Assembly: GCA_964489875.1 (NCBI GenBank)
Contig: CAZAZW010000001.1
Span: forward strand, 310,337 to 374,336
Direction of reading: 5' to 3'
Origin: an uncultured Gammaproteobacteria bacterium
GTDB taxonomy: Bacteria > Patescibacteriota > Microgenomatia > Daviesbacterales > UBA10151
DNA length: 64,000 nt
Position 1 is the first letter of the stretch; every line of letters begins with the position of its first letter. Of this stretch, positions 1,071-60,001 are shown in pieces. Position numbers and translations under genes: made by a program. Under the pieces are notes generated by a model. It made no database searches and was not told where the DNA came from. It saw nothing but the letters and a program-made list of their open reading frames with translations.

Positions 1071-1725
1071 ACTTATCAACCAACATAAATTCTGCCTGAG
1101 GTTTTTCCAGTAGCCCGGATTTGAACTTGAAATCAATCTCCAAAAGGTCTTTATAAAGATTCTTTATATTTTCCCTGTTAAATCTTATTCTTTGTCTGGC
1201 TAGTTTCTTTCGGACAAAATCAGGAGCATTTTTAGGGGTAGCTATTAAGTTGCGCAGCAGATAAAAAACCATTGTCAGACAGTAATGAATGTCAAAACCG
1301 GCATTTTTAAGTTTCTCCATCTCCAAGAAGGCTTTTTGGTCCTGAGCTGCTAAAAAATCCAAAAACGGAAAAACCGAAACCTCTTTGGCTTCAGGGAAAA
1401 ACAGCGCTTCAAACCCCGGCCACTTTTTAGTATCTACTTCATGATCAAACCACAGAACTAGGGTATAAGCAGAGCTTGCCCCGACTTTGTCGGGGTAGGG
1501 TATGGGGTATAGGGTATAGTTGGCTAATTCTTCTGGAGGGTTTTCTAAGACGATTAATTGTTGGCCGGAAAAAAGAGAAGACGTAACTAAACTACCTTTA
1601 ATAATCTGCAAATCCGTTCCCTCTTCATAAACTACTACACTATTTTGATCAAATCTTCGTTTAAGTTCTACAAGTTTATTTCTTGAAGCAGATTTAGCGG
1701 GCCCGTGCAGAAGCAGTTGCGTCAT
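1048..1725 (-). CDS. DNA polymerase III delta subunit-like protein (tentative)
   Basis: 225 aa. The N-terminal half (LLLHGP...LFSGQQLIVLENPPE) and helical C-terminal half resemble short HolA proteins. This is a weak by-eye match only. Confidence 0.35.
   Translation of the reverse strand: MTQLLLHGPAKSASRNKLVELKRRFDQNSVVVYEEGTDLQIIKGSLVTSSLFSGQQLIVLENPPEELANYTLYPIPYPDKVGASSAYTLVLWFDHEVDTKKWPGFEALFFPEAKEVSVFPFLDFLAAQDQKAFLEMEKLKNAGFDIHYCLTMVFYLLRNLIATPKNAPDFVRKKLARQRIRFNRENIKNLYKDLLEIDFKFKSGLLEKPQAEFMLVDKFTGRLTP
1498..1518. repeat. Heptamer tandem array GGGTATR x3 inside the HolA-like ORF
   Basis: gggtatg gggtata gggtata read directly. It is preceded by a 7-bp-stem hairpin ccccgac-ttt-gtcgggg (about 1480-1496) and a further tagggtata at about 1460. 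Confidence 0.8.
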
Positions 1726-4212: not shown

Positions 4213-6141
4213 ATGATAACATATAACGCAACTATGCCCCCTCTCTTAGATGATTTAAATCCCGTTCAACAGCAAGCCGTTAAAACTACCGAAGGTCCTT
4301 GCTTAATCTTGGCTGGAGCCGGTTCCGGTAAAACGAAAGTCTTGACCCATCGGGTAGCTTATCTGATCCAGGAGAAAAGTGTACCACCGGAGAGTATTCT
4401 TATGGTCACGTTCACAAACAAAGCCGCCGGCGAGATGAGAGACCGCATAATCAAGCTTCTGAATTTCCAGCTTCCAGCCTCTAGCTTCCAACTTCCAGTA
4501 ATGGGCACTTTCCACAGTTTTTGCGCCAAAATCCTGCGCCGTGAGGGTCAGACCCTGGGATTACCCCCAGGATTTGCCATTTACGACGAAGGTGATGCTT
4601 TGGATGCAGTTAAAGAAGCCATGAGTAATTTAAACATCCCGACTCAAAAAACCTCTCCGGCTGCTGTTAGAAATACCATTTCCGGAGCTAAAAACGAACT
4701 GATTTCTTCCTTGGAATACCCACAATATGCCAGAGGTTATTTCCAGGAAACTGTGGCCAAAATTTATCTAGAATATCAAAAAATTTTAGAGAGAAACCAC
4801 GCCCTGGATTTTGATGATCTATTGTTATACGTCATTAAACTATTCCAGTCTGACCCAAGTATCTTAATCCGCTATCAAATTCAATTTCGCTATATCCTGA
4901 TAGATGAATACCAGGACACTAACCCGGCCCAATATTTAATCAGTAAATATTTATCCAAACGCCACAAAAATATTTGCGTTGTGGGTGACGCCAGCCAATC
5001 AATCTATTCATTCAGAGGCGCAGATTTTCGAAACATAGTAAATTTTCAAAAAGATTATCCGGAGGCACAAGTTTTCAACCTGGAACAAAACTACCGTTCT
5101 ACCCAAAACATCTTAGATGCAGCCTTTGCTGTTATTTCCAAGAATAGATCTCATCCAATTTTAAAACTTTGGACTAATAAAAACGGGGGGGAGAAAATTG
5201 AGGTGATTGAAGTAAGAAACGAAGTTGAAGAAGCCCTGTTTATCCTAAGCGCTATCACTCGCCTCCAAGGTGAAGCCACCACGAACCACGAACCACGAAC
5301 TCTCAACTCATTCGCCATTTTATACCGGACCAATGCCCAATCACGATCCTTAGAAGAACAATTCCTGAAAGCCGGTATTCCCTATCAGTTAGTCGGCGGA
5401 GTCAGTTTCTATGCCAGGAAAGAGATCAAGGATGTCCTGGCCTATCTTCGTCTGTTACAAAACCCCAAAGATTCAGTTTCCCTAAAACGGGCAGAAAAAA
5501 TCGGCAAAGGGAGACTTTCAAAAGTTATGGAACTTTTCACGGAAATTGAGTCCAAATTAGACCAATATGTCACATTAGACTTATTGGATTTAATTCTAAA
5601 TCGCACCGGTTATTTAGCTTATCTGGATGACAACAGTGAAGAAGGTAAGATGCGGATGGAAAATGTTAAGGAACTGCGCTCAGTGGCGGAAGAATTTCCC
5701 AACTTAACGGATTTTTTGGAAAATGTCGCTTTAGTAGAAGCTTCCGATACACAGAGACACCGAGACACTGACACACCAAAAAATGATGCCGTTACTTTAA
5801 TGACTCTGCATTCGGCCAAAGGCTTAGAATTCCCGGTAATTTTTATGGTTGGTATGGAGGAAGGTTTATTCCCTCATTCCAGATCTATGCTGGATGTAGC
5901 TCAGCTGGAAGAAGAAAGAAGGCTTTGCTATGTTGGCATTACCCGGGCCAGAGAAAGATTATATTTAACTTATACCAGACAAAGGTTATATTTTGGACAG
6001 CGCAGTAATAATTTAGTTTCCCGATTCTTAGGAGATATTCCCCAGAACCTAATTGAAAGCAATACCAATTTTAGGGACCAGGATAGTTTCTTAGATGATG
6101 TCAGCAATAAAACAGATGAGGATGATTGGCTGAAGATTTAA
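4213..6141 (+). CDS. pcrA: UvrD/PcrA-type ATP-dependent DNA helicase
   Basis: LNPVQQQAV, AGAGSGKTKVLTHRVAYLI (Walker A), DEYQDTN, VGDASQSIYSFRGA, TLHSAKGLEF, VGITRAR. Confidence 0.9.
   Translation: MITYNATMPPLLDDLNPVQQQAVKTTEGPCLILAGAGSGKTKVLTHRVAYLIQEKSVPPESILMVTFTNKAAGEMRDRIIKLLNFQLPASSFQLPVMGTFHSFCAKILRREGQTLGLPPGFAIYDEGDALDAVKEAMSNLNIPTQKTSPAAVRNTISGAKNELISSLEYPQYARGYFQETVAKIYLEYQKILERNHALDFDDLLLYVIKLFQSDPSILIRYQIQFRYILIDEYQDTNPAQYLISKYLSKRHKNICVVGDASQSIYSFRGADFRNIVNFQKDYPEAQVFNLEQNYRSTQNILDAAFAVISKNRSHPILKLWTNKNGGEKIEVIEVRNEVEEALFILSAITRLQGEATTNHEPRTLNSFAILYRTNAQSRSLEEQFLKAGIPYQLVGGVSFYARKEIKDVLAYLRLLQNPKDSVSLKRAEKIGKGRLSKVMELFTEIESKLDQYVTLDLLDLILNRTGYLAYLDDNSEEGKMRMENVKELRSVAEEFPNLTDFLENVALVEASDTQRHRDTDTPKNDAVTLMTLHSAKGLEFPVIFMVGMEEGLFPHSRSMLDVAQLEEERRLCYVGITRARERLYLTYTRQRLYFGQRSNNLVSRFLGDIPQNLIESNTNFRDQDSFLDDVSNKTDEDDWLKI
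4465..4499. repeat. Heptamer tandem array (TTCCAGC-like x5) inside pcrA
   Basis: ttccagc ttccagc ctctagc ttccaac ttccagt, translated as FQLPASSFQLPV. Confidence 0.8.
5279..5299. repeat. Perfect heptamer tandem array CCACGAA x3 inside pcrA
   Basis: ccacgaa ccacgaa ccacgaa, translated as TTNHEPRT. Confidence 0.85.
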
Positions 6142-10161: not shown

Positions 10162-11205
10162 ATGGATATTCGACCTATCACCGGCAAACAAAAAGCTGCC
10201 TACAATAAATTAGTCACTCATGTGATCCAATCTTGGGAGTGGGGAGAATTTAGAAAATCTTTGGGGATTCCGGTTTTACGGTACGGCATTTACCAAGGGA
10301 ATAAATTATCTAAAGCTTTTCAGCTAACTTTACATAAAATTCCCTTTACCAACCAATATGTCGGTTATTTACCAAAAGGCCCCTTGCCGGATAAAGAACT
10401 TGCAGAAGCTCTTAAAAAAATTGGTAGAGAAAATAATTGTGCTTTTATAAAAGTTGAGCCGGATGTAGAAACAAATAGACAATGGACAATGGACAATGGA
10501 CAAAAAAAGAATTCTCAATTATCAATTGTCAATTTTCAATTTATTCCATCTCCCAAGCCCCTTTTTACCAAATATAATTTCGTTCTTGATTTAACAAAAT
10601 CAGAAGAGGAACTTTTGAAAAACTTACATCCCAAAACCAGATACAACATTAAAGTGGCTCAAAAACATGGAGTAAAAGTAGAAACTAAAACAGATAATGA
10701 AGCTTTTGAGGTTTATTTAAAACTCTACTTTGAGACCACTAAAAGACAAGGTTATCACGGACACAATGAATATTATCACCGGGAAGTATGGGAAACTTTA
10801 AAAACTGCCGGTATGACAAGATTACTAATTGCTTTTTATGAAGGCAAACCCCTAACCGCCTGGATGCTTTTAAATTTTAAAGACACCCTTTATTATCCTT
10901 ATGGCGGTTCATCCGTTACTCACCGAGAAGTGATGGCTAATAATCTCGTAGCCTGGAAAGCAATAAAATTAGGTAAAAAGTTAGGGCTTAAAAAATTTGA
11001 CATGTGGGGGGCGCTAGGTCCTGATGCCAATCCCAAGGATTCCTGGTTTGGGTTTCACAAATTCAAACAGGGATACGGAGGACAACTTACCGAATACATT
11101 GGCACTTATGATTTAGTTTTTAACTGGCCTGTGTATTTTACTTTTACTATAATTGATCGTTTAACCCCGTTAAAAGTTTTTCTGTTAAGGTTATTGGGGA
11201 AATAA
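10162..11205 (+). CDS. FemAB-family peptidoglycan peptide-bridge aminoacyltransferase
   Basis: SWEWGEFR, LHPKTRYNIKVAQKHGV, YYPYGGS, ANNLVAWKAIKLGK: the FemX/MurM pattern. Confidence 0.8.
   Translation: MDIRPITGKQKAAYNKLVTHVIQSWEWGEFRKSLGIPVLRYGIYQGNKLSKAFQLTLHKIPFTNQYVGYLPKGPLPDKELAEALKKIGRENNCAFIKVEPDVETNRQWTMDNGQKKNSQLSIVNFQFIPSPKPLFTKYNFVLDLTKSEEELLKNLHPKTRYNIKVAQKHGVKVETKTDNEAFEVYLKLYFETTKRQGYHGHNEYYHREVWETLKTAGMTRLLIAFYEGKPLTAWMLLNFKDTLYYPYGGSSVTHREVMANNLVAWKAIKLGKKLGLKKFDMWGALGPDANPKDSWFGFHKFKQGYGGQLTEYIGTYDLVFNWPVYFTFTIIDRLTPLKVFLLRLLGK
10478..10503. repeat. Heptamer tandem array GACAATG x3.7 inside femAB-family gene
   Basis: gacaatg gacaatg gacaatg gacaa, translated as RQWTMDNGQ. 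Confidence 0.85.
10515..10542. repeat. Heptamer tandem array TCAATTN x4 inside femAB-family gene
   Basis: tcaatta tcaattg tcaattt tcaattt, translated as SQLSIVNFQF. Lies 11 nt after the previous array. Confidence 0.85.
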
Positions 11206-18039: not shown

Positions 18040-18926
18040 AATTAGTTGATACTCATACCCATCTTTATTGGGATTCATATACGGCAGATTTTGATGAAAT
18101 AATCCAAAGGGCTGTTGATACCGACATCTCCACCATTATTAACATCGGCGTGGATATTGAAACAAGCCAGAAAGCATTAGATCAAGCCAAAAACACCACA
18201 TGGCCTACAGGTTTATTAGTTTACTCCACCATTGGCATACATCCCCATGAATCATCTAAATATGATTCTAATGAATTTCTGCAACAAGCTATGGAAAAAC
18301 TAGAACAAATCTATCTTTCCGATAAGCGAAGCTTGAAAGTCAACCTTTCAAGCAAACTTTCAAGGTTTCCTTATAAAACAAGGGTGGTCGGGATTGGTGA
18401 ATGCGGTCTGGATTTCTTTTCCACCTCCGAGGTGGGCTTTGACTCCTCGGAGGTATTTAGTCAGAAAAAACTCTTTAAAGCCCACATTGATTTGGCCAAA
18501 AAACTAAACCTTCCTTTAATCGTCCATTGCCGGGATGACAGGTCAAAAGATCCAAACAATTCTGAAGCCTGGGGTGAAGTAATAAAAATGGTCGGCAACC
18601 AACCTGCCATCTTACATTGTTATAGTGGACTTTCCCAAACTACCAACTACCTACTACGAACTGCAAACTTATTTGTTTCTTTTGCAGCCAATCTCACTTA
18701 CCCCAAAAATGAATATTTAAGAGAAGCTGTTAAGACCCTACCTCTTAACAGAATTCTTTTAGAAACAGACTCCCCTTTTTTGGCTCCCCAAAGTAAAAGA
18801 GGCCAAAGGAATGAACCATCTGCAGTCAAAGAAATCGCCGAGTTAATTGCAAACTTAAAAGGAGTATCTCTGGAAGAAGTCGCCGACCAAACCACAGCAA
18901 ACGCTAATAAAATATTTGCTTTCTGA
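18036..18926 (+). CDS. tatD: TatD-family metal-dependent hydrolase
   Basis: VDTHTHL, IGECGLDF, IVHCRD, LLETDSPFL. Confidence 0.85.
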   Translation: MKLVDTHTHLYWDSYTADFDEIIQRAVDTDISTIINIGVDIETSQKALDQAKNTTWPTGLLVYSTIGIHPHESSKYDSNEFLQQAMEKLEQIYLSDKRSLKVNLSSKLSRFPYKTRVVGIGECGLDFFSTSEVGFDSSEVFSQKKLFKAHIDLAKKLNLPLIVHCRDDRSKDPNNSEAWGEVIKMVGNQPAILHCYSGLSQTTNYLLRTANLFVSFAANLTYPKNEYLREAVKTLPLNRILLETDSPFLAPQSKRGQRNEPSAVKEIAELIANLKGVSLEEVADQTTANANKIFAF

Positions 18927-28187: not shown

Positions 28188-29791
28188 CGAATTAGTGGCG
28201 GCTGGGTTGAACGGTCAAGCCGAGTGTTCCTGATTACTTCCGGACTCACCCGTGATTCTATAACTGATATTTTATTCAGTAAGACTGGTATTTGTTCATA
28301 AAACCTTAAATTTGCCGCTATTTTTTTATAGGCAAGATACTCACTGATGTTAAACGCCTGCCAGCTTATTCCCTCTTCCGTGCCATATTTACCCAACAGA
28401 TAATCTTTTCTTTCCTGAAGCTTGCGGAGCGTATAGTTCCGATAGTAGAGCTGTCTGTTTTGCTCAGTTGAAATATTGGCAATCCCCTCGAGGCGGGAAA
28501 CAGTTTCTATGGAGTCTTCAATCGCCGGCTGCCAGGACTGCTCGCCGTCAGGAGATAAATTAGCAAGATAATAATAATCAATTTCGCCGTTAACAGTTGG
28601 TTTATAGGAGGTGGCTATCAACCCATCAACATTGATGACGTTTACAAGTATCAAGACAAATAGTGTTGCCGCCACGATGCTCCCAAAAAACCATTGTTGT
28701 TTTACTCTTTGAAAAAGTTTGACCAGAAAAATTATTAGTAAAATACCTAACCACACCAAAAATATAAAGCCAAAGACCCGAGCCCTGGTCAATCCATGAG
28801 CATCTGCATATAATAGTAAACGCTTTACCGCCGAAAGTAGCAAAAATCCTGTCTCAATAGTCAAGATCGTTCCGAAAAGGTGAACAACTGCTGCCAATTT
28901 GCCCCTCAGCTGCTTAATGTAACGCAATACATAGAGCAACAAGCCACAAGCAACACTTGAGGCAACCAGTAATTCAAAGAATCCTTTCCTGACATATTCT
29001 GAATAGGTCAAACTATTAATTCCCAGCTCTGCCAGCTCCCGTTCACCCACTGATGAAAAAAGATAGCGAAACTGCACCAGAATAAAAGCGGCAAACAGGA
29101 GAGTCACTGAACCGGTGATCACTATCAGCTCATGTGATTTACCTTCTGCTATCTTTTCTTCCGAAGTTTGTTCTTGCAGTTTGTAAGTTGCCAGCCCAAA
29201 TCCTAAAAGGGTCAAAAATAAAACTACAGACTTCACCGCCCTTTCCCCAATGCCCGAGAAAAGGTTTTGGGTCAATTTATCAAAAATCGGGTCTGCTTGA
29301 ACCAATAACAAAAGCAAAACCACAAATACCGGTATAGTAATGACTAAACCACGTATCAGTGAAGATGTACTTTTGTGTTCGAAAGGAGTTTCGGACCAAC
29401 TACCTGCTTGAAACAATTTGAAAAATCCACCCACAGAGGAAACAAGGACAACCAAGGGAAGACCAATAAAATGCGCTATCTGAAAGGAAAGTTGGCCTTG
29501 ATATTTATAAAAATAAAGTGCCACTAAAGAGAAAAAGACAGCGGCAGCTATATCAATCAGTTGGACAACACCGCTGGCCCTAAGAATAAACAAAAAGGCA
29601 AAAATAATACTGACTACAGAAGCTAAAACTGCAACAGACAAATTCTTAGCGTTAGTATCTTTGACAGTAAAAAAGTAGAGATTGAGAAACAAAAAAAGCA
29701 GTCCTGTCCCAAGACCCGGTTGGGTATGGAAAAATAACAGATTATACAGGACAACAAACAGTGCGCTTAAAGCAATTGTTCTCGTGATCAT
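28184..29791 (-). CDS. Large polytopic membrane protein (DUF4173-like, tentative)
   Basis: About 12 hydrophobic helices followed by a soluble C-terminal domain. The family call is from memory only. Confidence 0.45.
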   Translation of the reverse strand: MITRTIALSALFVVLYNLLFFHTQPGLGTGLLFLFLNLYFFTVKDTNAKNLSVAVLASVVSIIFAFLFILRASGVVQLIDIAAAVFFSLVALYFYKYQGQLSFQIAHFIGLPLVVLVSSVGGFFKLFQAGSWSETPFEHKSTSSLIRGLVITIPVFVVLLLLLVQADPIFDKLTQNLFSGIGERAVKSVVLFLTLLGFGLATYKLQEQTSEEKIAEGKSHELIVITGSVTLLFAAFILVQFRYLFSSVGERELAELGINSLTYSEYVRKGFFELLVASSVACGLLLYVLRYIKQLRGKLAAVVHLFGTILTIETGFLLLSAVKRLLLYADAHGLTRARVFGFIFLVWLGILLIIFLVKLFQRVKQQWFFGSIVAATLFVLILVNVINVDGLIATSYKPTVNGEIDYYYLANLSPDGEQSWQPAIEDSIETVSRLEGIANISTEQNRQLYYRNYTLRKLQERKDYLLGKYGTEEGISWQAFNISEYLAYKKIAANLRFYEQIPVLLNKISVIESRVSPEVIRNTRLDRSTQPPLIR

Positions 29792-42359: not shown

Positions 42360-43490
42360 ATGGTAATCTTGGGAATTGAAACCAGTTGTGATGAAACGGC
42401 AGCTGCAGTAGTGCAAAAGTCCGGAGAAAGGGTAAAAATTTTATCCAATGTTGTGGCATCCTCAGCTGCGCTGCAAGCTAAATACGGCGGTGTAATCCCC
42501 GAACAAGCTGCCAGAGAACAAATAAAATCTATTATTCCTGTTATCCAAGAGGCACTTTCTGAAGCATTTCCCCAACTACCAACTACTAACTACCAACTAC
42601 ATATTCCTATTGATGCAATAGTAATTACCTACGGTCCCGGACTTATCGGCTCACTTTTAGTAGGCGTCGAAACAGCCAAAACCCTGGCCATGGTCTGGAA
42701 CAAACCACTCATTCCGGTAAACCATTTACTGGGCCATTTCTATGCGAATTGGATTAATGATCAGCCTACCCTCCCCTGCCTTGGCTTGCTTATCTCCGGC
42801 GGGCATACTGATTTAGTTTTATTCAAAAGCCATGATAAATACGACTACCTAGGTGGAACCCGGGATGATGCAGCCGGGGAATGTTTTGACAAATGCGCCA
42901 GGCTTTTAAATTTACCTTATCCTGGTGGGCCGGAAATTTCTAAATTAGCCACACGTGGAGATGCTTCAAGGTTCAATCTCCCCAGACCTATGATTGATTC
43001 CAAAGACTTTGATTTTTCATTTTCCGGCTTAAAAACTGCGGTTTCTAACCTTTTAAAAAATGAGGGGGTGCTGTCCCTGAACGCAGCGAACTCTAGACGA
43101 GCGAAGCGAGCGTATCCGAGTCCGCCAGGGCGGACGCAGGACGCTTGCGTTAGTGAGCAAGTGAGCGGGATTGCCGACCGAAATATTCTCCAGGATTTAT
43201 CCGCTTCCATAGAACAAGCTATTGTTGATGTTTTAATTACCAAAACCCTCAAGGCCGCCCAGAAATATAAAGTCAAGCAAATAATGGTGGCTGGTGGAGT
43301 TGCTGCCAACCAAAAACTAAAAAGTGACTTAAGATTAAAAATTAATGATTTAGGATTAAAAATTAAATTGCACATCCCTACGCCTGAACTCTGTACTGAC
43401 AATGCTGCCATGATTGCTACGGCTGCCTTTTTTAACTACCACCCCACTGATCCCTTAACCCTCCAAGCCAACCCCAATTTATCCCTGTGA
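42360..43490 (+). CDS. tsaD: tRNA N6-adenosine threonylcarbamoyltransferase
   Basis: ILGIETSCDETAAAVV, NHLLGH, GGHT, FSFSGLKTAV, VAGGVAAN, CTDNAAMIA. Confidence 0.9.
   Translation: MVILGIETSCDETAAAVVQKSGERVKILSNVVASSAALQAKYGGVIPEQAAREQIKSIIPVIQEALSEAFPQLPTTNYQLHIPIDAIVITYGPGLIGSLLVGVETAKTLAMVWNKPLIPVNHLLGHFYANWINDQPTLPCLGLLISGGHTDLVLFKSHDKYDYLGGTRDDAAGECFDKCARLLNLPYPGGPEISKLATRGDASRFNLPRPMIDSKDFDFSFSGLKTAVSNLLKNEGVLSLNAANSRRAKRAYPSPPGRTQDACVSEQVSGIADRNILQDLSASIEQAIVDVLITKTLKAAQKYKVKQIMVAGGVAANQKLKSDLRLKINDLGLKIKLHIPTPELCTDNAAMIATAAFFNYHPTDPLTLQANPNLSL
42572..42599. repeat. Heptamer tandem array CCAACTA x4 inside tsaD
   Basis: ccaacta ccaacta ctaacta ccaacta, translated as QLPTTNYQLH. Confidence 0.85.
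43079..43184. repeat. GC-rich ~106-nt element, copy B, in-frame inside tsaD
   Basis: Same modules as 29993-30102 in the same DNA orientation, but here the host gene is on the plus strand. Translated as NAANSRRAKRAYPSPPGRTQDACVSEQVSGIADRN. Confidence 0.8.
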
Positions 43491-46958: not shown

Positions 46959-47756
46959 TTATTCTTTTTGAGGCTCTTCTCCGCCTTTTCCAGTCTCCCC
47001 TTGTGATTGTTCGCCCTCTGTTGTAGCTTCACCTTCTGCAACTTCTTCTCCTTCAGCAGCTTCAGCGCCTTCAGCCGCTTCTTCAGCTTTCTCTGCGCCT
47101 TCTTCAGTCTCAGCAGCGGCCGCTGCAGTCTCTGCAGCCTGCTCTTCCATCAACTGCTGCATCTCAGCTGTCACAGCCGGAGCTAGCTTAACCACGATAT
47201 CTTCCTCAACAGCATCAATAGTTAGCTTACTTCTGTCATAATTTAGCTGGCCAACTGTAATAGCATCATCAATATTCTTTAAAGAGGTAATATCAACTTC
47301 AATATTTTCCACCAAATCAGTCGGCAAAGCTTCCATCTGCACCTCATTTAAGGTTTGCAACACGATTGTCTCCCCTAACTTGACTGATTCCGGCTGCTCC
47401 CCGACCAAAACCAACGGCACCGGCACCTTAACTTTCTGAGTCAGGTTAACCTGATAAAAATCAATGTGGACAGGCTCATCTGAAACCGGGTCATATTGCA
47501 CTCCCCGCACCATCACCGGTCTCACCTTTTCAGTATCGACTGCGTCAGCAGCAAGCTTGCTTATCTTAAGATCAATTAAACCTGTCTCCCCCGCCTCTTT
47601 AAAGATTTTCAGGAAAGTCTTACCGTCAACTGATACATGTTCTGTTTCCAAGCCCTTACCAAAAACATGGCCCGGCAGCTTGCCGTCTTTTCTTAAATTC
47701 TTAACTTTTTTGCCTAAGAGTATTCTCTCCTCGGCATTTAAACTTAATCTGTCCAT
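46959..47756 (-). CDS. rplY: Ribosomal protein L25 / Ctc with long acidic C-terminal tail
   Basis: LNAEERILLGKKVKNLRKDGKLPGHVFGKG, PVMVRGVQYDPVSDEPVHIDFYQV, and a tail rich in E/A/G. Confidence 0.8.
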   Translation of the reverse strand: MDRLSLNAEERILLGKKVKNLRKDGKLPGHVFGKGLETEHVSVDGKTFLKIFKEAGETGLIDLKISKLAADAVDTEKVRPVMVRGVQYDPVSDEPVHIDFYQVNLTQKVKVPVPLVLVGEQPESVKLGETIVLQTLNEVQMEALPTDLVENIEVDITSLKNIDDAITVGQLNYDRSKLTIDAVEEDIVVKLAPAVTAEMQQLMEEQAAETAAAAAETEEGAEKAEEAAEGAEAAEGEEVAEGEATTEGEQSQGETGKGGEEPQKE

Positions 47757-56033: not shown

Positions 56034-57253
56034 AGTTGATCCTTTTTTCGCTCGATGATTAATACTACTATCTGCATCCCTAAAATGAAATATTCGGAAA
56101 CTACCGTTATCCAAGAGGCAGCAATAAAAGAATAGCTTGGTATGAAAATAAAATTAAGAATCAAATTTAAAATCAGTCCCGATATGTAAAGGAGTAACAT
56201 ACTTTTATACCTCCCCGTGGCAATTAGAATCCACATAAGAAGGGCGGAAACAAAATAAGCCGGAAACCCTAAGGAAAGAATTTGTAAAGATGATATTGAC
56301 CCGGTAAATCCACCGCCTGTTAAAATTTCTACAACAACAGGCGCAAAAAAGAAAGTTATCGCAGTCGCCAATAAAGATACGGCCAAAAGGCCCAACAACA
56401 TCCACTTTATTCCATGAAAAGTTTTTAACATCAGCGGATAATAAGCATTCATAATAAAAGTCGGTAGTACTAAGGCGGATTGAAAAACCGAATAAGCAAC
56501 ATTATAAATCCCCACGTCGGAAATCGGTTTAAAATAGGCGATCAAAAAAGAATCTGCCCGGAAATATAAAACATTCAAAGATAGTGTCGCCGCCATGGGC
56601 CAGGTTTGCTTAAATAAATTCAGCGAATACTGAAGGTTGAATATCGGAGTAATAACACGGAGAAATCTGCGTACCAATAAAAGTGCAGTAGCGGCAATTA
56701 CCAGCCAACCAATTAAATGGGCGATCAGTAAAAAAGGAATCGGGGATTTGAAATTAGATATTAATACAAAAGCTGCCAAACTCACCAAAGTCCCAAAACT
56801 GGATGCCGAAACAGATAAATCGTAGCGCAGCTTACCTTGAAAAATCAAATTAGCAGTTACAAATACTGATGAGGCAATAATTGCCAGACTACCCAAAAAA
56901 ACTGCCGTATTAAAATCCTTGGTAGCAAACGGCCAAAAGGGGAGCAGTCCAACCGCCAAAATTACCAACATCCCGGACCACAGAAGCCTTGTTCCCAACA
57001 ACTCGTTCCATTCAGTTTTGATCTTTGATCCTTGATCTTTGATCTTGCGTAGTACATGCGCATTAAATCCAAAATCCGCCAAAATATAGAAAATTGAAAG
57101 GTAAGTCAGTGCCAGCGTAAAAACTCCGGTCCCGCCGGTGCCGTAATTCCTGGCCACCAAACCTAGAATCATAAAAGTGGAAAGGGAGGTTACAACCTTA
57201 CCTAAAACCTGCCAAAAAGTCTGCTGAAAAATCTTAAGTGTTTGACTCACCAA
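56030..57253 (-). CDS. MOP/Wzx-type polysaccharide flippase
   Basis: About 12 TM segments, with the FWQVLGKVVTSLSTFMILGLVARNYG N-terminus typical of polysaccharide biosynthesis proteins. Confidence 0.65.
   Translation of the reverse strand: MVSQTLKIFQQTFWQVLGKVVTSLSTFMILGLVARNYGTGGTGVFTLALTYLSIFYILADFGFNAHVLRKIKDQGSKIKTEWNELLGTRLLWSGMLVILAVGLLPFWPFATKDFNTAVFLGSLAIIASSVFVTANLIFQGKLRYDLSVSASSFGTLVSLAAFVLISNFKSPIPFLLIAHLIGWLVIAATALLLVRRFLRVITPIFNLQYSLNLFKQTWPMAATLSLNVLYFRADSFLIAYFKPISDVGIYNVAYSVFQSALVLPTFIMNAYYPLMLKTFHGIKWMLLGLLAVSLLATAITFFFAPVVVEILTGGGFTGSISSLQILSLGFPAYFVSALLMWILIATGRYKSMLLLYISGLILNLILNFIFIPSYSFIAASWITVVSEYFILGMQIVVLIIERKKDQL
57018..57045. repeat. Heptamer tandem array TTGATCY x4 inside the flippase gene
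   Basis: ttgatct ttgatcc ttgatct ttgatct, translated on the minus strand as KIKDQGSKIK. Confidence 0.85.
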
Positions 57254-58460
57254 AATATTTTAACATGGAAAAAGAAAGTCCCCATACCAAAAATAGTAAA
57301 CGATAACCTTGGGATAAAGTTAAAAAGTAGTGGTCAAACAGACCGAGGAAAAGGATAATAATCCAGGGCAGTAAAGTAGGGTATAGGATGTAGGATTTGG
57401 GGTGTAGTCGAGAAAGCCATAAAATAGGCAATCCTATGAGACCTATCAGTCCAATTAGACCTACCAACCCTGTTTCAGATAAAGCTAACAAGAAAATATT
57501 ATGGACCGGCTGCAAAAATCTGCTGGGGCCAATGGTTAAGTCAGTTGATACAGTAGGGATAAAATTATTTAGGCCTATTCCCAAAACAGGATGATGCAAA
57601 AATATCTGCCAGGCACTTCCTATTTGCTCCTCACGTCTAAGCAAAGTCAAATTATCAAAATTTAGTAGACTTGAAAATCTGGTAAAAAGAATGGGGGATA
57701 ACAACAAAATTAAAACCGTCATTAAAATCCGCCATTTTCTTTTAAGTAAAACTAAAGCTGCGCCAACTCCTGCCAGGATAGCTACTCTGGACATGGTAGC
57801 AAACACAGTCATACTCCCCAGAATTAACGCCAGGTTAATCAACTGCTTCTTTTCCCTTGCTACCTGATACATAATACACGTCCCAACCAAAACAAAGCCT
57901 GCTAGCACGTTGGGGTGAGGAAACGTTGCATAAGGCCGGAGGAATTGCCATCCATAAAGATCAAACTTGGCAATCCCAGGGGTGGAAATGCTAAAAGTTC
58001 TTTCCCCTAAAATCCAAAAACCTAAAGTTTCCCCCTTTATAAACTGCAATATGGCTAAAGTTGTCTCCCCTAATAGTGCCAAAGCAAGCGGCAAATAAAT
58101 TTTCTTAAGATCTTTAAAATTCTGTGAGGCAATGAAAACCCCAAAAAGTCCGGAAATCGTATACTGCTCCAATCTAGCAAGCCCAGCTCCCATATTCTCA
58201 GCTGCCAGCAAAGATAATCCTTGAGATAGTAAAAAAAATAAAAATAAATTTAAGGCTAATTTATTAACCGCCGGCTTTTGCAAAAACCAAACCAGAAGCA
58301 ATCCTGCTACCAACAGGTCCCAAAAATATAAGGTGGGGGATAAATAGTCAATTTTTAGGGAATATATAAAAGAAAAATCCGGCCAAAAATGCTTACCGAG
58401 TTGGGTCGGAAGGAAAAGTACAACTAAAAATAAGAGTGCCCTCTCTAAGCGAATTAGCAT
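57234..58460 (-). CDS. O-antigen ligase / Wzy-like polymerase family membrane protein
   Basis: Polytopic, with MSRVAILAGVGAAL and a large loop, as in Wzy_C proteins. Confidence 0.65.
   Translation of the reverse strand: MLIRLERALLFLVVLFLPTQLGKHFWPDFSFIYSLKIDYLSPTLYFWDLLVAGLLLVWFLQKPAVNKLALNLFLFFLLSQGLSLLAAENMGAGLARLEQYTISGLFGVFIASQNFKDLKKIYLPLALALLGETTLAILQFIKGETLGFWILGERTFSISTPGIAKFDLYGWQFLRPYATFPHPNVLAGFVLVGTCIMYQVAREKKQLINLALILGSMTVFATMSRVAILAGVGAALVLLKRKWRILMTVLILLLSPILFTRFSSLLNFDNLTLLRREEQIGSAWQIFLHHPVLGIGLNNFIPTVSTDLTIGPSRFLQPVHNIFLLALSETGLVGLIGLIGLIGLPILWLSRLHPKSYILYPTLLPWIIILFLGLFDHYFLTLSQGYRLLFLVWGLSFSMLKYFGESNT
57376..57403. repeat. Imperfect heptamer tandem array (NTAGGRT x4) inside the O-antigen-ligase gene
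   Basis: gtagggt ataggat gtaggat ttggggt, translated on the minus strand as HPKSYILYPT. Confidence 0.7.
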
Positions 58461-59158: not shown

Positions 59159-60001
59159 TTATTTCACTTGACTCTTGACTCTAGTCACTAGACTCTCCAA
59201 TCCTCCCCAACCTGACACCCGATGCTGCTGAACTATTCCCAGTATTGTATACGTATTCCAATAAATTGCAAGCCCGATGGGAAAAGTAAAGGCAAAATAA
59301 CCAATCATGATCGGCATTAAATACACCATCTGAGATTGAACCGCGCCCATGCTTTCTTCAATTCCCTCTTTCTCCTTTGCTTCCTTGGGAGAGTCAGTTG
59401 GGTAGTGCTTAACCGGTTTCGGCAAAGTCATCTTCGATTGAATAAAAGTTAACACTGCTGTCAGAAGGGGGATTAACAGTAAACCAACTCCCAAACTGGC
59501 AAACTCAGAGGGTTTAGCGCCTAAATTAAGTCCGAAAAAATTCGGATCCAGGGTAGAAGGAAGCTTAAGTTGCGGAAAATATAACAAAGAATTTATTTTA
59601 TCAATATGACCGCCTGCCCCGGGTAAAATATTAATAATTGATTGATATAAAGCTATAAATACCGGGATCTGAATTAAAGCCGGCAAACAACCGCCGGCCG
59701 GATTGACACCGTGCTCCTTATAAAGTGCCATCTGAGCGCTGGCAAAAGCTTGCTTATCTCCTTTGTGCTTCTGCTTTAGCGCATCCAGGTGCGGCTTTAA
59801 ATCAGCCATCTTTTTAGTAGCCTTAATCTGAGAAGCCATAAATGGCCAAACCAAAATCCTGATTAAAACAGTCAGAGCCAGTATGGAAAAACCCAGCGCC
59901 CCCGGGATATGCAAACTGGAAAGTCCCTGGAAAATTAATACCAGCAGGTTAATAACCGGACCAAAAAATATTAAGTTAAAAAGATCAATAATAGCACCCA
60001 T
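59159..60001 (-). CDS. yidC: Membrane protein insertase YidC
   Basis: Conserved YidC/Oxa1 core (PFMASQIKATKKMADLKP, GGCLPALIQIPVFIALY, GLAIYW). Start set at the ATG that shares an A with the yidD stop (TAATG). Confidence 0.9.
   Translation of the reverse strand: MGAIIDLFNLIFFGPVINLLVLIFQGLSSLHIPGALGFSILALTVLIRILVWPFMASQIKATKKMADLKPHLDALKQKHKGDKQAFASAQMALYKEHGVNPAGGCLPALIQIPVFIALYQSIINILPGAGGHIDKINSLLYFPQLKLPSTLDPNFFGLNLGAKPSEFASLGVGLLLIPLLTAVLTFIQSKMTLPKPVKHYPTDSPKEAKEKEGIEESMGAVQSQMVYLMPIMIGYFAFTFPIGLAIYWNTYTILGIVQQHRVSGWGGLESLVTRVKSQVK
59167..59194. repeat. Imperfect heptamer tandem array at the yidC 3' end
   Basis: cttgact cttgact ctagtca ctagact, translated on the minus strand as SLVTRVKSQV. 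Confidence 0.7.

What the first reader, a model, noticed from the sequence alone, without database searches (positions are those of the whole stretch)
10478..10542. Period-7 micro-arrays with different unit sequences sit in-frame inside conserved genes (at least nine loci)
The following arrays are read directly from the sequence:
- 1498-1518: GGGTATR x3, in the HolA-like gene.
- 4465-4499: TTCCAGC-like x5, in pcrA.
- 5279-5299: CCACGAA x3, perfect, in pcrA.
- 10478-10503: GACAATG x3.7, and 10515-10542: TCAATTN x4, both in the femAB-family gene.
- 42572-42599: CCAACTA x4, in tsaD.
- 57018-57045: TTGATCY x4, in the flippase gene.
- 57376-57403: NTAGGRT x4, in the O-antigen ligase gene.
- 59167-59194: CTTGACT/CTAGNCN x4, at the yidC 3' end.

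The unit sequence differs at every locus, but the period (7 nt) and size (21-35 nt) are constant. Each array lies inside an ORF and is translated as an odd peptide such as FQLPASSFQLPV, TTNHEPRT, RQWTMDNGQ, SQLSIVNFQF, QLPTTNYQLH or KIKDQGSKIK. As far as I recall these families, those positions are not conserved core.

Seven is not a multiple of three, so gain or loss of one unit would frameshift essential genes. That makes persistence of the arrays surprising. I know of no described element or mechanism that generates unit-variable, period-constant heptamer arrays in coding DNA.
Basis: seen in the sequence. Interest (0 to 1): 0.75.

Follow-up and report, generated by a model that had tools for sequence, protein, structure and literature searches.

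The report
Heptamer repeats inside CPR bacterial genes
Short runs of 7-base tandem repeats really are scattered in-frame through essential genes of this Candidatus Daviesbacteria (CPR) genome and its relatives; they look like a coding-region version of the known but unexplained bacterial excess of heptanucleotide repeats, not a new element.

Summary
The window has 11 period-7 arrays by TRF against about 1.5 in shuffles. Lag-7 autocorrelation finds 9 segments against 0-3 at other non-harmonic lags. An E. coli control has none. The organism is a Candidatus Daviesbacteria (CPR/Microgenomates).

In 1.39 Mb around femAB orthologues from 80 related genomes, period 7 is the dominant repeat period, though patchily. 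The arrays are not concentrated in genes: density is about three times higher outside ORFs.

In femAB, pcrA, tsaD and the holA-like gene the arrays fill lineage-variable loops; in tatD one overlays a normally helical segment. Orthologues carry different units at the same site, usually at similar length, with concerted unit changes. Close relatives have identical arrays.

Units are not fully site-specific. The same unit recurs at unrelated sites of one genome (p=0.0008), and CCAACTA (peptide QLPTTNY) dominates.

Best reading: heptanucleotide simple-sequence repeats of the cyanobacterial STRR kind, made by 7-nt-register slippage or template switching and filtered in coding DNA. Heptamer excess in prokaryotes is published; this coding, CPR form appears undescribed. 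The cause of the 7-nt register and of unit sharing is unresolved.

The parts
1496..1519 (-). Heptamer array, sense unit CTATACC x3.4, peptide NYTLYPIPY, in the HolA-like ORF 1048-1725.
   Evidence: TRF (88% match). Lag-7 scan. Frame and peptide. Orthologues carry other units at the same site (L007 CACCCTA, L001 ACTCATC, L002 CCAACTA), and distant relatives have no array.
4465..4498 (+). Heptamer array TTCCAGC x4.9, peptide FQLPASSFQLP, at pcrA site 1, between the TFTNKAA motif and MGTFHS.
   Evidence: Orthologues carry CCAACTA (L005), AACCTAY (L009), ACCCTAT (L008) and CTACSAA (L021) at the same site and similar length. Distant relatives and the PcrA structure 1pjr have a loop about 5 aa shorter.
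5278..5300 (+). Perfect heptamer array ACCACGA x3.3, peptide TTNHEPR, at pcrA site 2.
   Evidence: L002 has ACTACGA x3.6 at the same site, a concerted one-base difference. Many orthologues lack the segment, and it is about +5 aa relative to 1pjr.
10474..10503 (+). Heptamer array GACAATG x4.3, peptide NRQWTMDNGQ, in the variable loop of the femAB-family gene.
   Evidence: AlphaFold gives pLDDT below 50 and no secondary structure for residues 98-139.
10510..10542 (+). Heptamer array TCAATTN x4.7, peptide NSQLSIVNFQF, in the same femAB loop. Its CAAT phase is offset by +1 nt from the first array, across an A8 run at 10502-10508.
   Evidence: The phase was read directly. That the two arrays are one old array with a 1-nt compensating indel is inference.
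18638..18662 (+). Heptamer array AACTACC x3.6, peptide TTNYLLRT, in tatD. It overlays the segment after HCYSG that array-less relatives conserve.
   Evidence: The alignment to TatD structure 1j6o places it on SDYEWAKKFIDL-G.
28935..28955 (-). Marginal period-7 row, TGTTGCT x3, in the DUF4153 membrane-protein ORF. Possibly chance.
   Evidence: TRF score 35. Not recovered by the lag-7 scan.
42572..42600 (+). Heptamer array CCAACTA x4.1, peptide QLPTTNYQL, at tsaD site 1.
   Evidence: The array is identical, including its variant third unit, in L081. Absent from many orthologues.
43334..43367 (+). Degenerate period-7/21 array ATTAAAA, peptide RLKINDLGLKIK, near the tsaD C-terminus. A similar LKLKIxNLKLxI segment occurs in most close relatives aligned.
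   Evidence: TRF (period 7, 74% match; period 21, 90%). Alignment.
57017..57046 (-). Heptamer array, sense unit AAGATCA x4.3, peptide KIKDQGSKIK, in the flippase (Polysacc_synt) ORF.
   Evidence: Orthologues were not examined.
57376..57403 (-). Weak, degenerate heptamer array (ACCCCAA ATCCTAC ATCCTAT ACCCTAC), peptide HPKSYILYPT, in the Wzy/O-antigen-ligase-like ORF, C-terminal to the Wzy_C match.
   Evidence: Sequence and frame. Below TRF threshold. The Pfam match ends at residue 339 and the array is at residues 353-362.
59167..59194 (-). Heptamer array, sense unit AGTCAAG-like x4 (two clean copies), forming the last 10 codons of yidC.
   Evidence: The Pfam 60KD_IMP match ends at residue 272 and the array is at residues 282-291 of 292.

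Best explanation
The arrays are heptanucleotide simple-sequence repeats of the kind known from other prokaryotes, such as cyanobacterial STRRs. They are not an element with defined ends.

**Proposed mechanism.** A replication or repair process in this lineage (Daviesbacteria, Levybacteria, Curtissbacteria) mis-aligns nascent and template strands in a 7-nt register. This turns short tracts of about 24-34 nt into (XY)nX arrays and keeps homogenising them. The process acts genome-wide. In coding DNA, selection keeps only outcomes that meet three conditions:
- no stop codon on the sense strand;
- a net length change that is a multiple of three;
- a location in a tolerant segment: a variable loop, a terminus, or a replaceable helix.

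**A frame property.** Because 3 is invertible modulo 7, an array encodes the same cyclic heptapeptide in every frame. Orientation and net length are therefore the only coding constraints.

**Result.** Lineage-specific peptides such as QLPTTNY arise in otherwise conserved enzymes.

**Shown:** the periodicity excess, the lineage distribution, the location in variable sites, unit turnover with concerted change, short-term stability, and higher density outside ORFs.

**Inferred:** slippage or template switching as the generating step, and selection as the filter.

**Unexplained:** why the register is 7 nt, and why units are shared between unrelated sites.
For: **Periodicity excess**
- Period 7 gives 11 rows against 1.55 in shuffles.
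- Lag 7 gives 9 segments against 0-3 at other lags.
- In 1.39 Mb of related loci, period 7 gives 111 rows and period 14 gives 58; the next most frequent period is 12, with 41 rows.
- Perfect runs: 122 at period 7, 14 at period 8 and 9 at period 9.

**Lineage specificity**
- Density per 10 kb: Levybacteria 2.4, Curtissbacteria 1.5, Daviesbacteria-like 1.15, other Patescibacteria 0.64. The E. coli control has none.

**Signs of a genome-wide process pruned in genes**
- Density is 0.96 per 10 kb inside ORFs and about 2.9 per 10 kb outside.
- Non-ORF arrays often contain stop codons and abut gene ends.
- Array lengths cluster at 24-25 and 30-34 nt, the (XY)nX form expected from microhomology-seeded duplication.

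**Tolerant sites**
- Arrays sit in variable loops of femAB, pcrA, tsaD and the holA-like gene.
- The femAB segment has pLDDT below 50.

**Concerted evolution**
- ACCACGA x3 in the window against ACTACGA x3 in L002.
- AATACAN x4 in L015 against ACTACNN x4 in four other lineages.

**Other points**
- No RNA structure: z-scores from -1.8 to +1.1.
- No conserved flanks.
- Published precedent and the slippage hypothesis: PMC4679880 and PMC4692102.
Against: - Local slippage predicts units set by the local sequence. Instead, identical units recur at unrelated sites of one genome: 10 pairs against 2.75 expected, p=0.0008. These units are not consistently abundant as single k-mers.
- Median copy number is 4.4 both inside and outside ORFs. 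The size of about 30 nt is therefore not simply a +21-nt frame filter.
- Orthologous sites with and without arrays often have nearly the same length. That needs paired gain and loss, or a conversion-like step, rather than simple expansion.
- In-ORF arrays are A-rich and G-poor on the sense strand (A 0.41, G 0.11). Stop avoidance alone predicts A 0.27 and G 0.18.
- No copy-number polymorphism was seen. No read data were available, and the one DNA-level comparison (L081) plus three same-90%-cluster protein families showed identical arrays or hot-spot content.
Confidence: 0.55

Rival explanations
1. The arrays are very small propagating repeats. Tracts of a few preferred heptamer units are copied between unrelated sites, then kept only where they are in frame and stop-free. 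Copying could be by ectopic gene conversion or template switching seeded by microhomology, or by an unknown element-like mechanism as proposed for cyanobacterial small dispersed repeats. Local slippage would then be secondary.
For: - The same unit occurs at unrelated sites with unrelated flanks in one genome. Examples: L069 TTTCGGA at three sites, GAATTAG at two and AAATTTC at two; L037 (CAGAGAC)3CAG at both femAB hot spots; L072 CCAAGAT at three sites.
- Within-locus identical-unit pairs: 10 against 2.75 expected, p=0.0008.
- Between loci, identical units are 4.6 times the random expectation, and AACTACC occurs 9 times.
- Arrays often replace rather than lengthen a segment.
- The size mode is the same inside and outside ORFs.
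- Unit k-mers are not generally abundant outside arrays.
Against: - There are no conserved ends, no flanking signature and no fixed block length. The three L069 TTTCGGA arrays are 23, 31 and 33 nt.
- No associated gene was identified.
- Tolerated heptapeptides form a restricted set, so survivorship could inflate recurrence.
- The permutation test does not control for composition differences between genomes.
- Control heptamers of the same composition also occur as four-copy arrays in viral contigs: 7 hits for the target against 5 and 1 for two controls.
Confidence: 0.25
2. The heptamer periodicity is itself functional. It could be, for example, tandem binding sites on mRNA or single-stranded DNA for a protein that binds one heptamer per monomer, or deliberately unstructured mRNA tracts that modulate translation.
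For: - Several arrays are completely unstructured as RNA, with a minimum free energy of 0.
- There is a sense-strand A-rich, G-poor bias.
- Periodicity is retained at orthologous sites while the unit sequence changes.
- Binding of cold-shock proteins to heptamer repeats is discussed in PMC4679880.
Against: - Unit sequences differ freely between orthologues, so no sequence-specific binder is conserved.
- Many orthologues lack the array altogether.
- Presence is patchy even within a class: 0 to 3.8 arrays per 10 kb.
- Arrays occur in unrelated housekeeping genes with no common regulation.
Confidence: 0.05
3. The arrays are phase-variation (contingency) repeats that switch genes on and off by gaining or losing 7-nt units.
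For: Heptanucleotide repeats do drive phase variation in Haemophilus influenzae HMW1A (PMC8262952, listed). A 7-nt step does shift the reading frame.
Against: - Host genes are essential housekeeping genes (pcrA, tsaD, yidC, holA-like).
- Arrays have 3-5 mostly imperfect copies.
- They lie mid-gene.
- They are identical in the close relatives examined.
- No frameshifted alleles were seen.
Confidence: 0.03
4. The arrays are a chance, compositional or assembly artefact.
For: A few listed arrays are weak: 28935, 57376 and part of 59167.
Against: - Enrichment is seven-fold over shuffles.
- The signal is specific to lag 7.
- It recurs in dozens of independent assemblies from different studies.
- The arrays, at about 30 nt, are far shorter than sequencing reads.
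- ORFs stay intact through them.
Confidence: 0.02

Closest known systems
Over-representation of heptanucleotide long simple-sequence repeats in prokaryotic genomes (Mrazek, Guo and Shah 2007, as summarised in PMC4679880 and PMC4692102)
   Same: - The repeat class with a 7-nt unit is the most abundant long SSR.
- Many different units occur.
- The effect is genome-specific and phylogenetically scattered.
- The proposed cause is slippage tied to a roughly 7-nt polymerase contact.
   Different: - The published cases are mainly intergenic, and coding regions were reported to favour units that are multiples of three.
- Here 85% of arrays lie inside ORFs of a gene-dense CPR genome, including essential genes.
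- Copy numbers are low, at 3-6.
Cyanobacterial STRR sequences (short tandemly repeated repetitive heptanucleotides; Mazel et al. 1990; recalled, and mentioned in PMC4692102)
   Same: - Tandem heptamers.
- Several distinct unit families per genome, each recurring at many loci.
- Mechanism unknown.
   Different: - The host phylum differs.
- STRRs are largely intergenic and can be long, for example 26 copies in Nostoc.
- STRR families are few and highly reiterated. Here unit diversity is high and family sharing is statistical.
TAACTGA direct repeats of marine Beggiatoaceae and cyanobacteria (PMC4679880)
   Same: - Heptamer arrays of 2-6 copies.
- Stop codons in one orientation restrict where arrays can lie in genes.
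- The other orientation is translated as a repeating heptapeptide (LSVISYQ).
- Similar units occur here: TCAATTN in the window and TCAGCTA in L004.
   Different: - That system has one dominant unit, concentrated upstream of start codons, with a suggested regulatory role.
- Here there are many units, mostly within coding sequence.
Borg amino-acid tandem repeats (bioRxiv 10.1101/2022.05.18.492195)
   Same: - Genome-specific bursts of tandem repeats inside ORFs.
- They create new, probably disordered peptide segments.
- An A bias is reported.
   Different: - All Borg repeats within ORFs have unit lengths divisible by three, and their units are nearly all unique.
- Here the unit is 7 nt, so the frame is preserved only at the level of the whole array.
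In-frame insertion of small repeats into genes: Rickettsia palindromic elements and cyanobacterial small dispersed repeats (Elhai et al. 2008). Both are recalled from memory; the Elhai paper could not be retrieved.
   Same: - Very short repeated DNA is tolerated in frame inside conserved genes at variable positions.
- Elements can be nested: L005 has hairpin inserts inside heptamer arrays.
   Different: - Those elements have a conserved sequence and a hairpin structure.
- The heptamer arrays have neither.

Membership tests
Heptanucleotide SSR / STRR-type repeats | Head-to-tail tandem copies of a 7-nt unit, in excess over other periods | tested here: met
Heptanucleotide SSR / STRR-type repeats | Several distinct unit families per genome, each recurring at multiple loci | tested here: met
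   Within-locus identical-unit pairs: 10 against 2.75 expected, p=0.0008. Only 21-64 kb per genome was sampled.
Heptanucleotide SSR / STRR-type repeats | Predominantly intergenic location | tested here: not met
   133 of 156 arrays are fully inside ORFs. Per base, however, density is about three times higher outside ORFs.
Heptanucleotide SSR / STRR-type repeats | Length variation between related strains, as expected of slippage-prone SSRs | tested here: inconclusive
   Arrays are identical in the few close pairs available. No relatives above 90% identity have DNA for most sites, and there are no reads.
Phase-variable contingency repeats | Long, near-perfect tract in or upstream of a surface or host-interaction gene, with on/off frame switching | tested here: not met
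   Arrays have 3-5 mostly imperfect copies, lie mid-gene and sit in housekeeping genes. No frameshifted alleles were seen.
Amino-acid tandem repeats (Borg-type aaTR) | Unit length divisible by three within ORFs | tested here: not met
   The unit is 7 nt. Definition.
MITE / palindromic in-frame insertion elements (RPE-like) | Conserved element sequence with terminal inverted repeats or a stable hairpin | tested here: not met
   No significant folding. No shared flanks or ends. The MITE-like motif seen in relatives is at chance level in the window.
Transposon footprints (accumulated 7-bp target-site duplications) | An inserted element flanked by a duplicated unit; arrays growing by one unit per insertion-excision cycle | tested here: not met
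   L005 has a 48-nt insert inside an array, yet the same total of 4.4 units as L001, so no extra unit was created. This rests on a single informative case.

The most novel reading that the evidence does not exclude
Microgenomates may possess a lineage-specific DNA-copying activity with a fixed 7-nt register. It could be a template-switching or conversion process, possibly enzyme- or RNA-templated. It would rewrite tracts of about 30 nt of coding and non-coding DNA and spread a small set of preferred units between unrelated genes. That would amount to a new class of ultra-small propagating repeat that continually remodels protein loops in reduced genomes.
Probability: 0.2. Interest if true: 0.8.

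Novelty: new variant of a known kind. Interest (0 to 1): 0.55.

Why it matters
The excess of heptamer repeats in bacteria has been known since 1990 and 2007 but remains mechanistically unexplained.

This CPR lineage offers an unusually informative case:
- The repeats sit inside conserved genes, so orthologue alignments give exact boundaries, ancestral states and rates.
- Selection on reading frame exposes which mutational steps actually occur (single units, triple units or conversion).
- The patchy distribution across hundreds of available Patescibacteria genomes allows a gene presence/absence screen for the responsible factor.

The repeats are also a practical caveat. These arrays, and the MITE-like inserts that share their sites in relatives, account for some of the lineage-specific segments and length variation seen here in CPR proteins. 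They need no functional explanation.

Tried and rejected
**Mechanisms considered and set aside**
- Transposon footprint or 7-bp target duplication. The L005 nested insert adds no unit, and single-unit steps would be frameshifts.
- A simple rule that each array equals a +21-nt insertion. Sites with and without arrays often have the same length, and non-ORF arrays have the same copy-number mode.
- Hairpin or RNA structure. No significant folding was found.
- Stop-codon avoidance as the cause of the composition bias. Exact enumeration predicts A 0.27 and G 0.18, not the observed 0.41 and 0.11.
- Array units as hyper-abundant genomic k-mers. Results were mixed.
- A trans template carrying the CCAACTA complement elsewhere in the window. 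None was found outside the arrays.

**Searches that did not settle the question**
- Strain-level copy-number variation. The window's FemAB protein forms a single-member 90% cluster, and the next relative is about 80% identical. No locus pair exceeds about 92% DNA identity. Members of the same 90% cluster showed no variation at the arrays.
- Special status of CCAACTA. Exact (CCAACTA)x4 is found in more than 120 metagenome contigs with GC from 33% to 67%. Same-composition control arrays also occur in viral contigs, at 7 against 5 and 1, so no claim is made.
- The MITE-like palindromic motif of relatives, searched in the window, is at chance level.
- The Elhai 2008 and Mrazek 2007 papers could not be retrieved.
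- Orthologues of yidC, Wzy and the flippase were not examined.
Full report

Yes. TRF on the window reports 39 rows, 11 of them with period 7.

Forty dinucleotide-preserving shuffles give a mean of 1.55 period-7 rows. A separate lag-autocorrelation scan, requiring at least 16 of 21 matches, finds 9 segments at lag 7, against 0-3 at other lags and 5 at the harmonic lag 14. Fifty kilobases of E. coli K-12 give no period-7 row, against 9 in the first 50 kb of the window.

Pfam confirms the host genes: FemAB, UvrD/PcrA, TsaD, TatD, YidC, a Wzy_C protein, a Polysacc_synt flippase and a weak HolA-like match.

**2. Organism and breadth**

FemAB homologues identify the source as Candidatus Daviesbacteria (CPR, Microgenomates). 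The next relatives are about 80% identical.

I fetched 80 loci (1.39 Mb) around femAB orthologues from species-representative genomes. Across them, period 7 is the commonest tandem-repeat period: 111 rows, plus 58 at period 14, against 41 at period 12 and 23 or fewer at any other period. Perfect runs of at least two copies plus 2 nt number 122 at period 7, 14 at period 8 and 9 at period 9.

The distribution is patchy, from 0 to 3.8 arrays per 10 kb. By group, density per 10 kb is Levybacteria 2.4, Curtissbacteria 1.5, Daviesbacteria-like 1.15 and other Patescibacteria 0.64. This is therefore a feature of the lineage, not of this window.

**3. Where the arrays sit**

Arrays are not concentrated in genes. 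Of 156 arrays, 133 are fully inside stop-to-stop ORFs of at least 90 aa, and these ORFs cover 94.6% of the DNA. That gives about 0.96 arrays per 10 kb inside ORFs and about 2.9 per 10 kb outside. Arrays outside ORFs often carry stop codons and abut gene ends.

Inside genes they occupy variable positions:
- **femAB.** The array site lies between the conserved blocks CAFIKvEPD and SPKPLF. In 28 homologues that are otherwise 74-83% identical, this stretch is hypervariable in sequence and length. An AlphaFold model gives pLDDT below 50 and no secondary structure for residues 98-139. A second hot spot holds CCAACTA-type arrays in other genomes.
- **pcrA.** Both sites are extensions of about 5 aa relative to the PcrA structure 1pjr. 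Distant relatives have shorter loops.
- **tsaD.** Site 1 is absent from many orthologues.
- **yidC and Wzy.** These arrays lie beyond the Pfam domain matches.
- **tatD (an exception).** The array overlays, with only +1 aa, the segment after HCYSG that array-less relatives conserve. The alignment to TatD structure 1j6o places it on SDYEWAKKFIDL-G. From the TIM-barrel fold I infer that this segment is a helix.

**4. Evolutionary behaviour**

The same site carries different units in different lineages, at similar length:
- **pcrA site 1:** TTCCAGC (window, L001), CCAACTA (L005), AACCTAY (L009), ACCCTAT (L008), CTACSAA (L021).
- **femAB site 1:** GACAATG plus TCAATTN (window), CAGGTTA/CAGGCAA (L001, L005, L006, L009), TCAGCTN (L004), AAATCAA (L013).

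Changes are concerted:
- ACCACGA x3 in the window against ACTACGA x3 in L002.
- In tatD, AATACAN x4 in L015 against ACTACNN x4 in four other lineages. That requires at least four parallel substitutions.

Over short distances the arrays are stable. The tsaD array, including its variant third unit, is identical in L081. Members of the same 90% protein clusters have identical hot-spot content. No relatives close enough to show single gain or loss events were available.

**5. Units are not independent of each other**

The commonest unit is AACTACC (the same as CCAACTA, peptide QLPTTNY), with nine arrays plus several one-off variants. It appears in tatD, tsaD, pcrA, the holA-like gene and both femAB hot spots, in different genomes.

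Identical-unit pairs between loci are 4.6 times more frequent than for random stop-free heptamers. Within a locus, identical-unit pairs number 10 against 2.75 expected under permutation (p=0.0008).

Examples with unrelated flanks are L069 TTTCGGA at three sites, L037 (CAGAGAC)3CAG at both femAB hot spots, L072 CCAAGAT at three sites, and window AACTACC at 18638 and 42572. These units are not consistently over-represented as single k-mers.

**6. Other properties**

- **Length.** Array lengths cluster at 24-25 and 30-34 nt, the (XY)nX form with n = 3 or 4. Median copy number is 4.4 both inside and outside ORFs.
- **Composition.** In-ORF arrays are A-rich and G-poor on the sense strand (A 0.41, G 0.11), against A 0.32 and G 0.18 in their host ORFs. 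Stop avoidance alone predicts A 0.27 and G 0.18.
- **Structure.** The arrays have no significant RNA structure, and several fold to a minimum free energy of 0.
- **Frame invariance.** This follows directly from arithmetic. Successive codons start at offsets +3 modulo 7, so an array encodes the same cyclic heptapeptide in all three frames. The two L037 arrays illustrate it: RDQRLET and QRPETRDQ are rotations of one cycle.
- **The two femAB arrays in the window.** Both share the core CAAT, but their phases differ by +1 nt across an A8 run (read). They may be one old array with a compensating 1-nt indel. This is inference.

**7. Interpretation**

The most economical reading is heptanucleotide simple-sequence repeats made by mis-alignment in a 7-nt register during replication or repair. 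These arise genome-wide. In coding DNA they are filtered to outcomes that are stop-free, have a net length change that is a multiple of three, and fall in tolerant positions.

This matches the published picture:
- Heptanucleotide repeats are the most abundant long SSR class in many prokaryotes, with slippage over a roughly 7-nt polymerase contact proposed as the cause.
- Cyanobacterial STRRs and Beggiatoaceae TAACTGA repeats are multi-locus heptamer families (PMC4679880 and PMC4692102).

Arrays of 3-5 mostly imperfect copies are not expected to be very unstable, and frameshifted variants in essential genes would be purged.

Simple slippage leaves four things unexplained: unit sharing between unrelated sites, homogenisation at constant length, the common size mode, and the A-rich, G-poor bias. 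A copying or conversion process between arrays is therefore a serious rival, to which I give 0.25. I found no ends, flanks, structure or associated gene that would define a mobile element.

**8. Novelty**

Full-text searches for heptamer or tandem repeats in CPR, Patescibacteria, Microgenomates, Daviesbacteria or Levybacteria returned nothing relevant. Known heptamer repeats are described as mainly intergenic, and coding regions were reported to favour units that are multiples of three. Borg repeats inside ORFs are all divisible by three.

The coding-region, CPR form is therefore best called a new variant of a known kind. The features that set it apart are site-specific turnover and concerted evolution inside essential genes.

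**9. Limits**

- Only 21-64 kb per genome was sampled.
- Gene calls are crude stop-to-stop ORFs.
- The permutation test does not control for composition differences between genomes.
- Orthologues of yidC, Wzy and the flippase were not examined.
- No read-level data were available.
- The metagenome scan for (CCAACTA)x4 hit more than 120 contigs with GC from 33% to 67%. It cannot be interpreted without controls. In viral contigs the target gave 7 hits, against 5 and 1 for two same-composition controls.

Noticed in passing
L002 10277-10432; L003 2914-3069; L007 10277-10435; L008 5492-5584; TsaD homologues P0123, P0125, P0158, P0211: In relatives, the loops that hold heptamer arrays in the window instead hold in-frame palindromic MITE-like inserts. 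Their termini resemble GTCATCCTGAG...CTCAGAATGAC or GTCATTGCGAG...CTCGCAATGAC. They give recurrent peptides such as SEGSLANAS..EILR.AQND and VIASEAKQS..EIATSP..PRND. The motif is at chance level in the window itself.
   Followed up: partly
L005 about 10320-10367 and 10704-10737: Two small inserts are nested inside heptamer arrays of femAB. One is 48 nt and contains TAAGCAGAGCTT twice. The other is a 34-nt hairpin-like sequence, CCCGCAATGCTAGCGCAAGCGCTGCAGGCGGG. Both preserve the reading frame, and the array continues on both sides.
   Followed up: partly
window 43053-43185 (tsaD): An insert of about 44 aa (LKNEGVLSLNAANSRRAKRAYPSPPGRTQDACVSEQVSGIADRN) sits at a third hypervariable tsaD site. 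Only two of the homologues examined share it. It has no heptamer periodicity and no inverted repeat.
   Followed up: partly
L081 (P0122) against L082 (P0125): Two groundwater TsaD genes are identical over the C-terminal 230 aa but diverged in the N-terminal third. The L081 N-terminal part is nearly identical to the window around the array. This points to recombination between strains or a chimeric assembly.
   Followed up: no
L087, L102, L148 and other contigs of sample ERZ1740052: One metagenome has many contigs of about 38% GC and similar coverage that are packed with different heptamer arrays: AACTACC, AATTACC, AACTCCT, AATGCCC, and the TAACTGA unit known from Beggiatoaceae and cyanobacteria. 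The organism was not identified.
   Followed up: no
window 47027-47089: A period-9/18 repeat encodes the acidic Ala/Glu-rich C-terminal tail of an ORF (46959-47756, minus strand) that looks like ribosomal protein L25/Ctc by inspection; no family search was run. It is an ordinary multiple-of-three coding repeat.
   Followed up: yes
window 1-64000: There is no tRNA gene and no Rfam family match in 64 kb. GC skew is negative across almost the whole window, regardless of gene strand.
   Followed up: no
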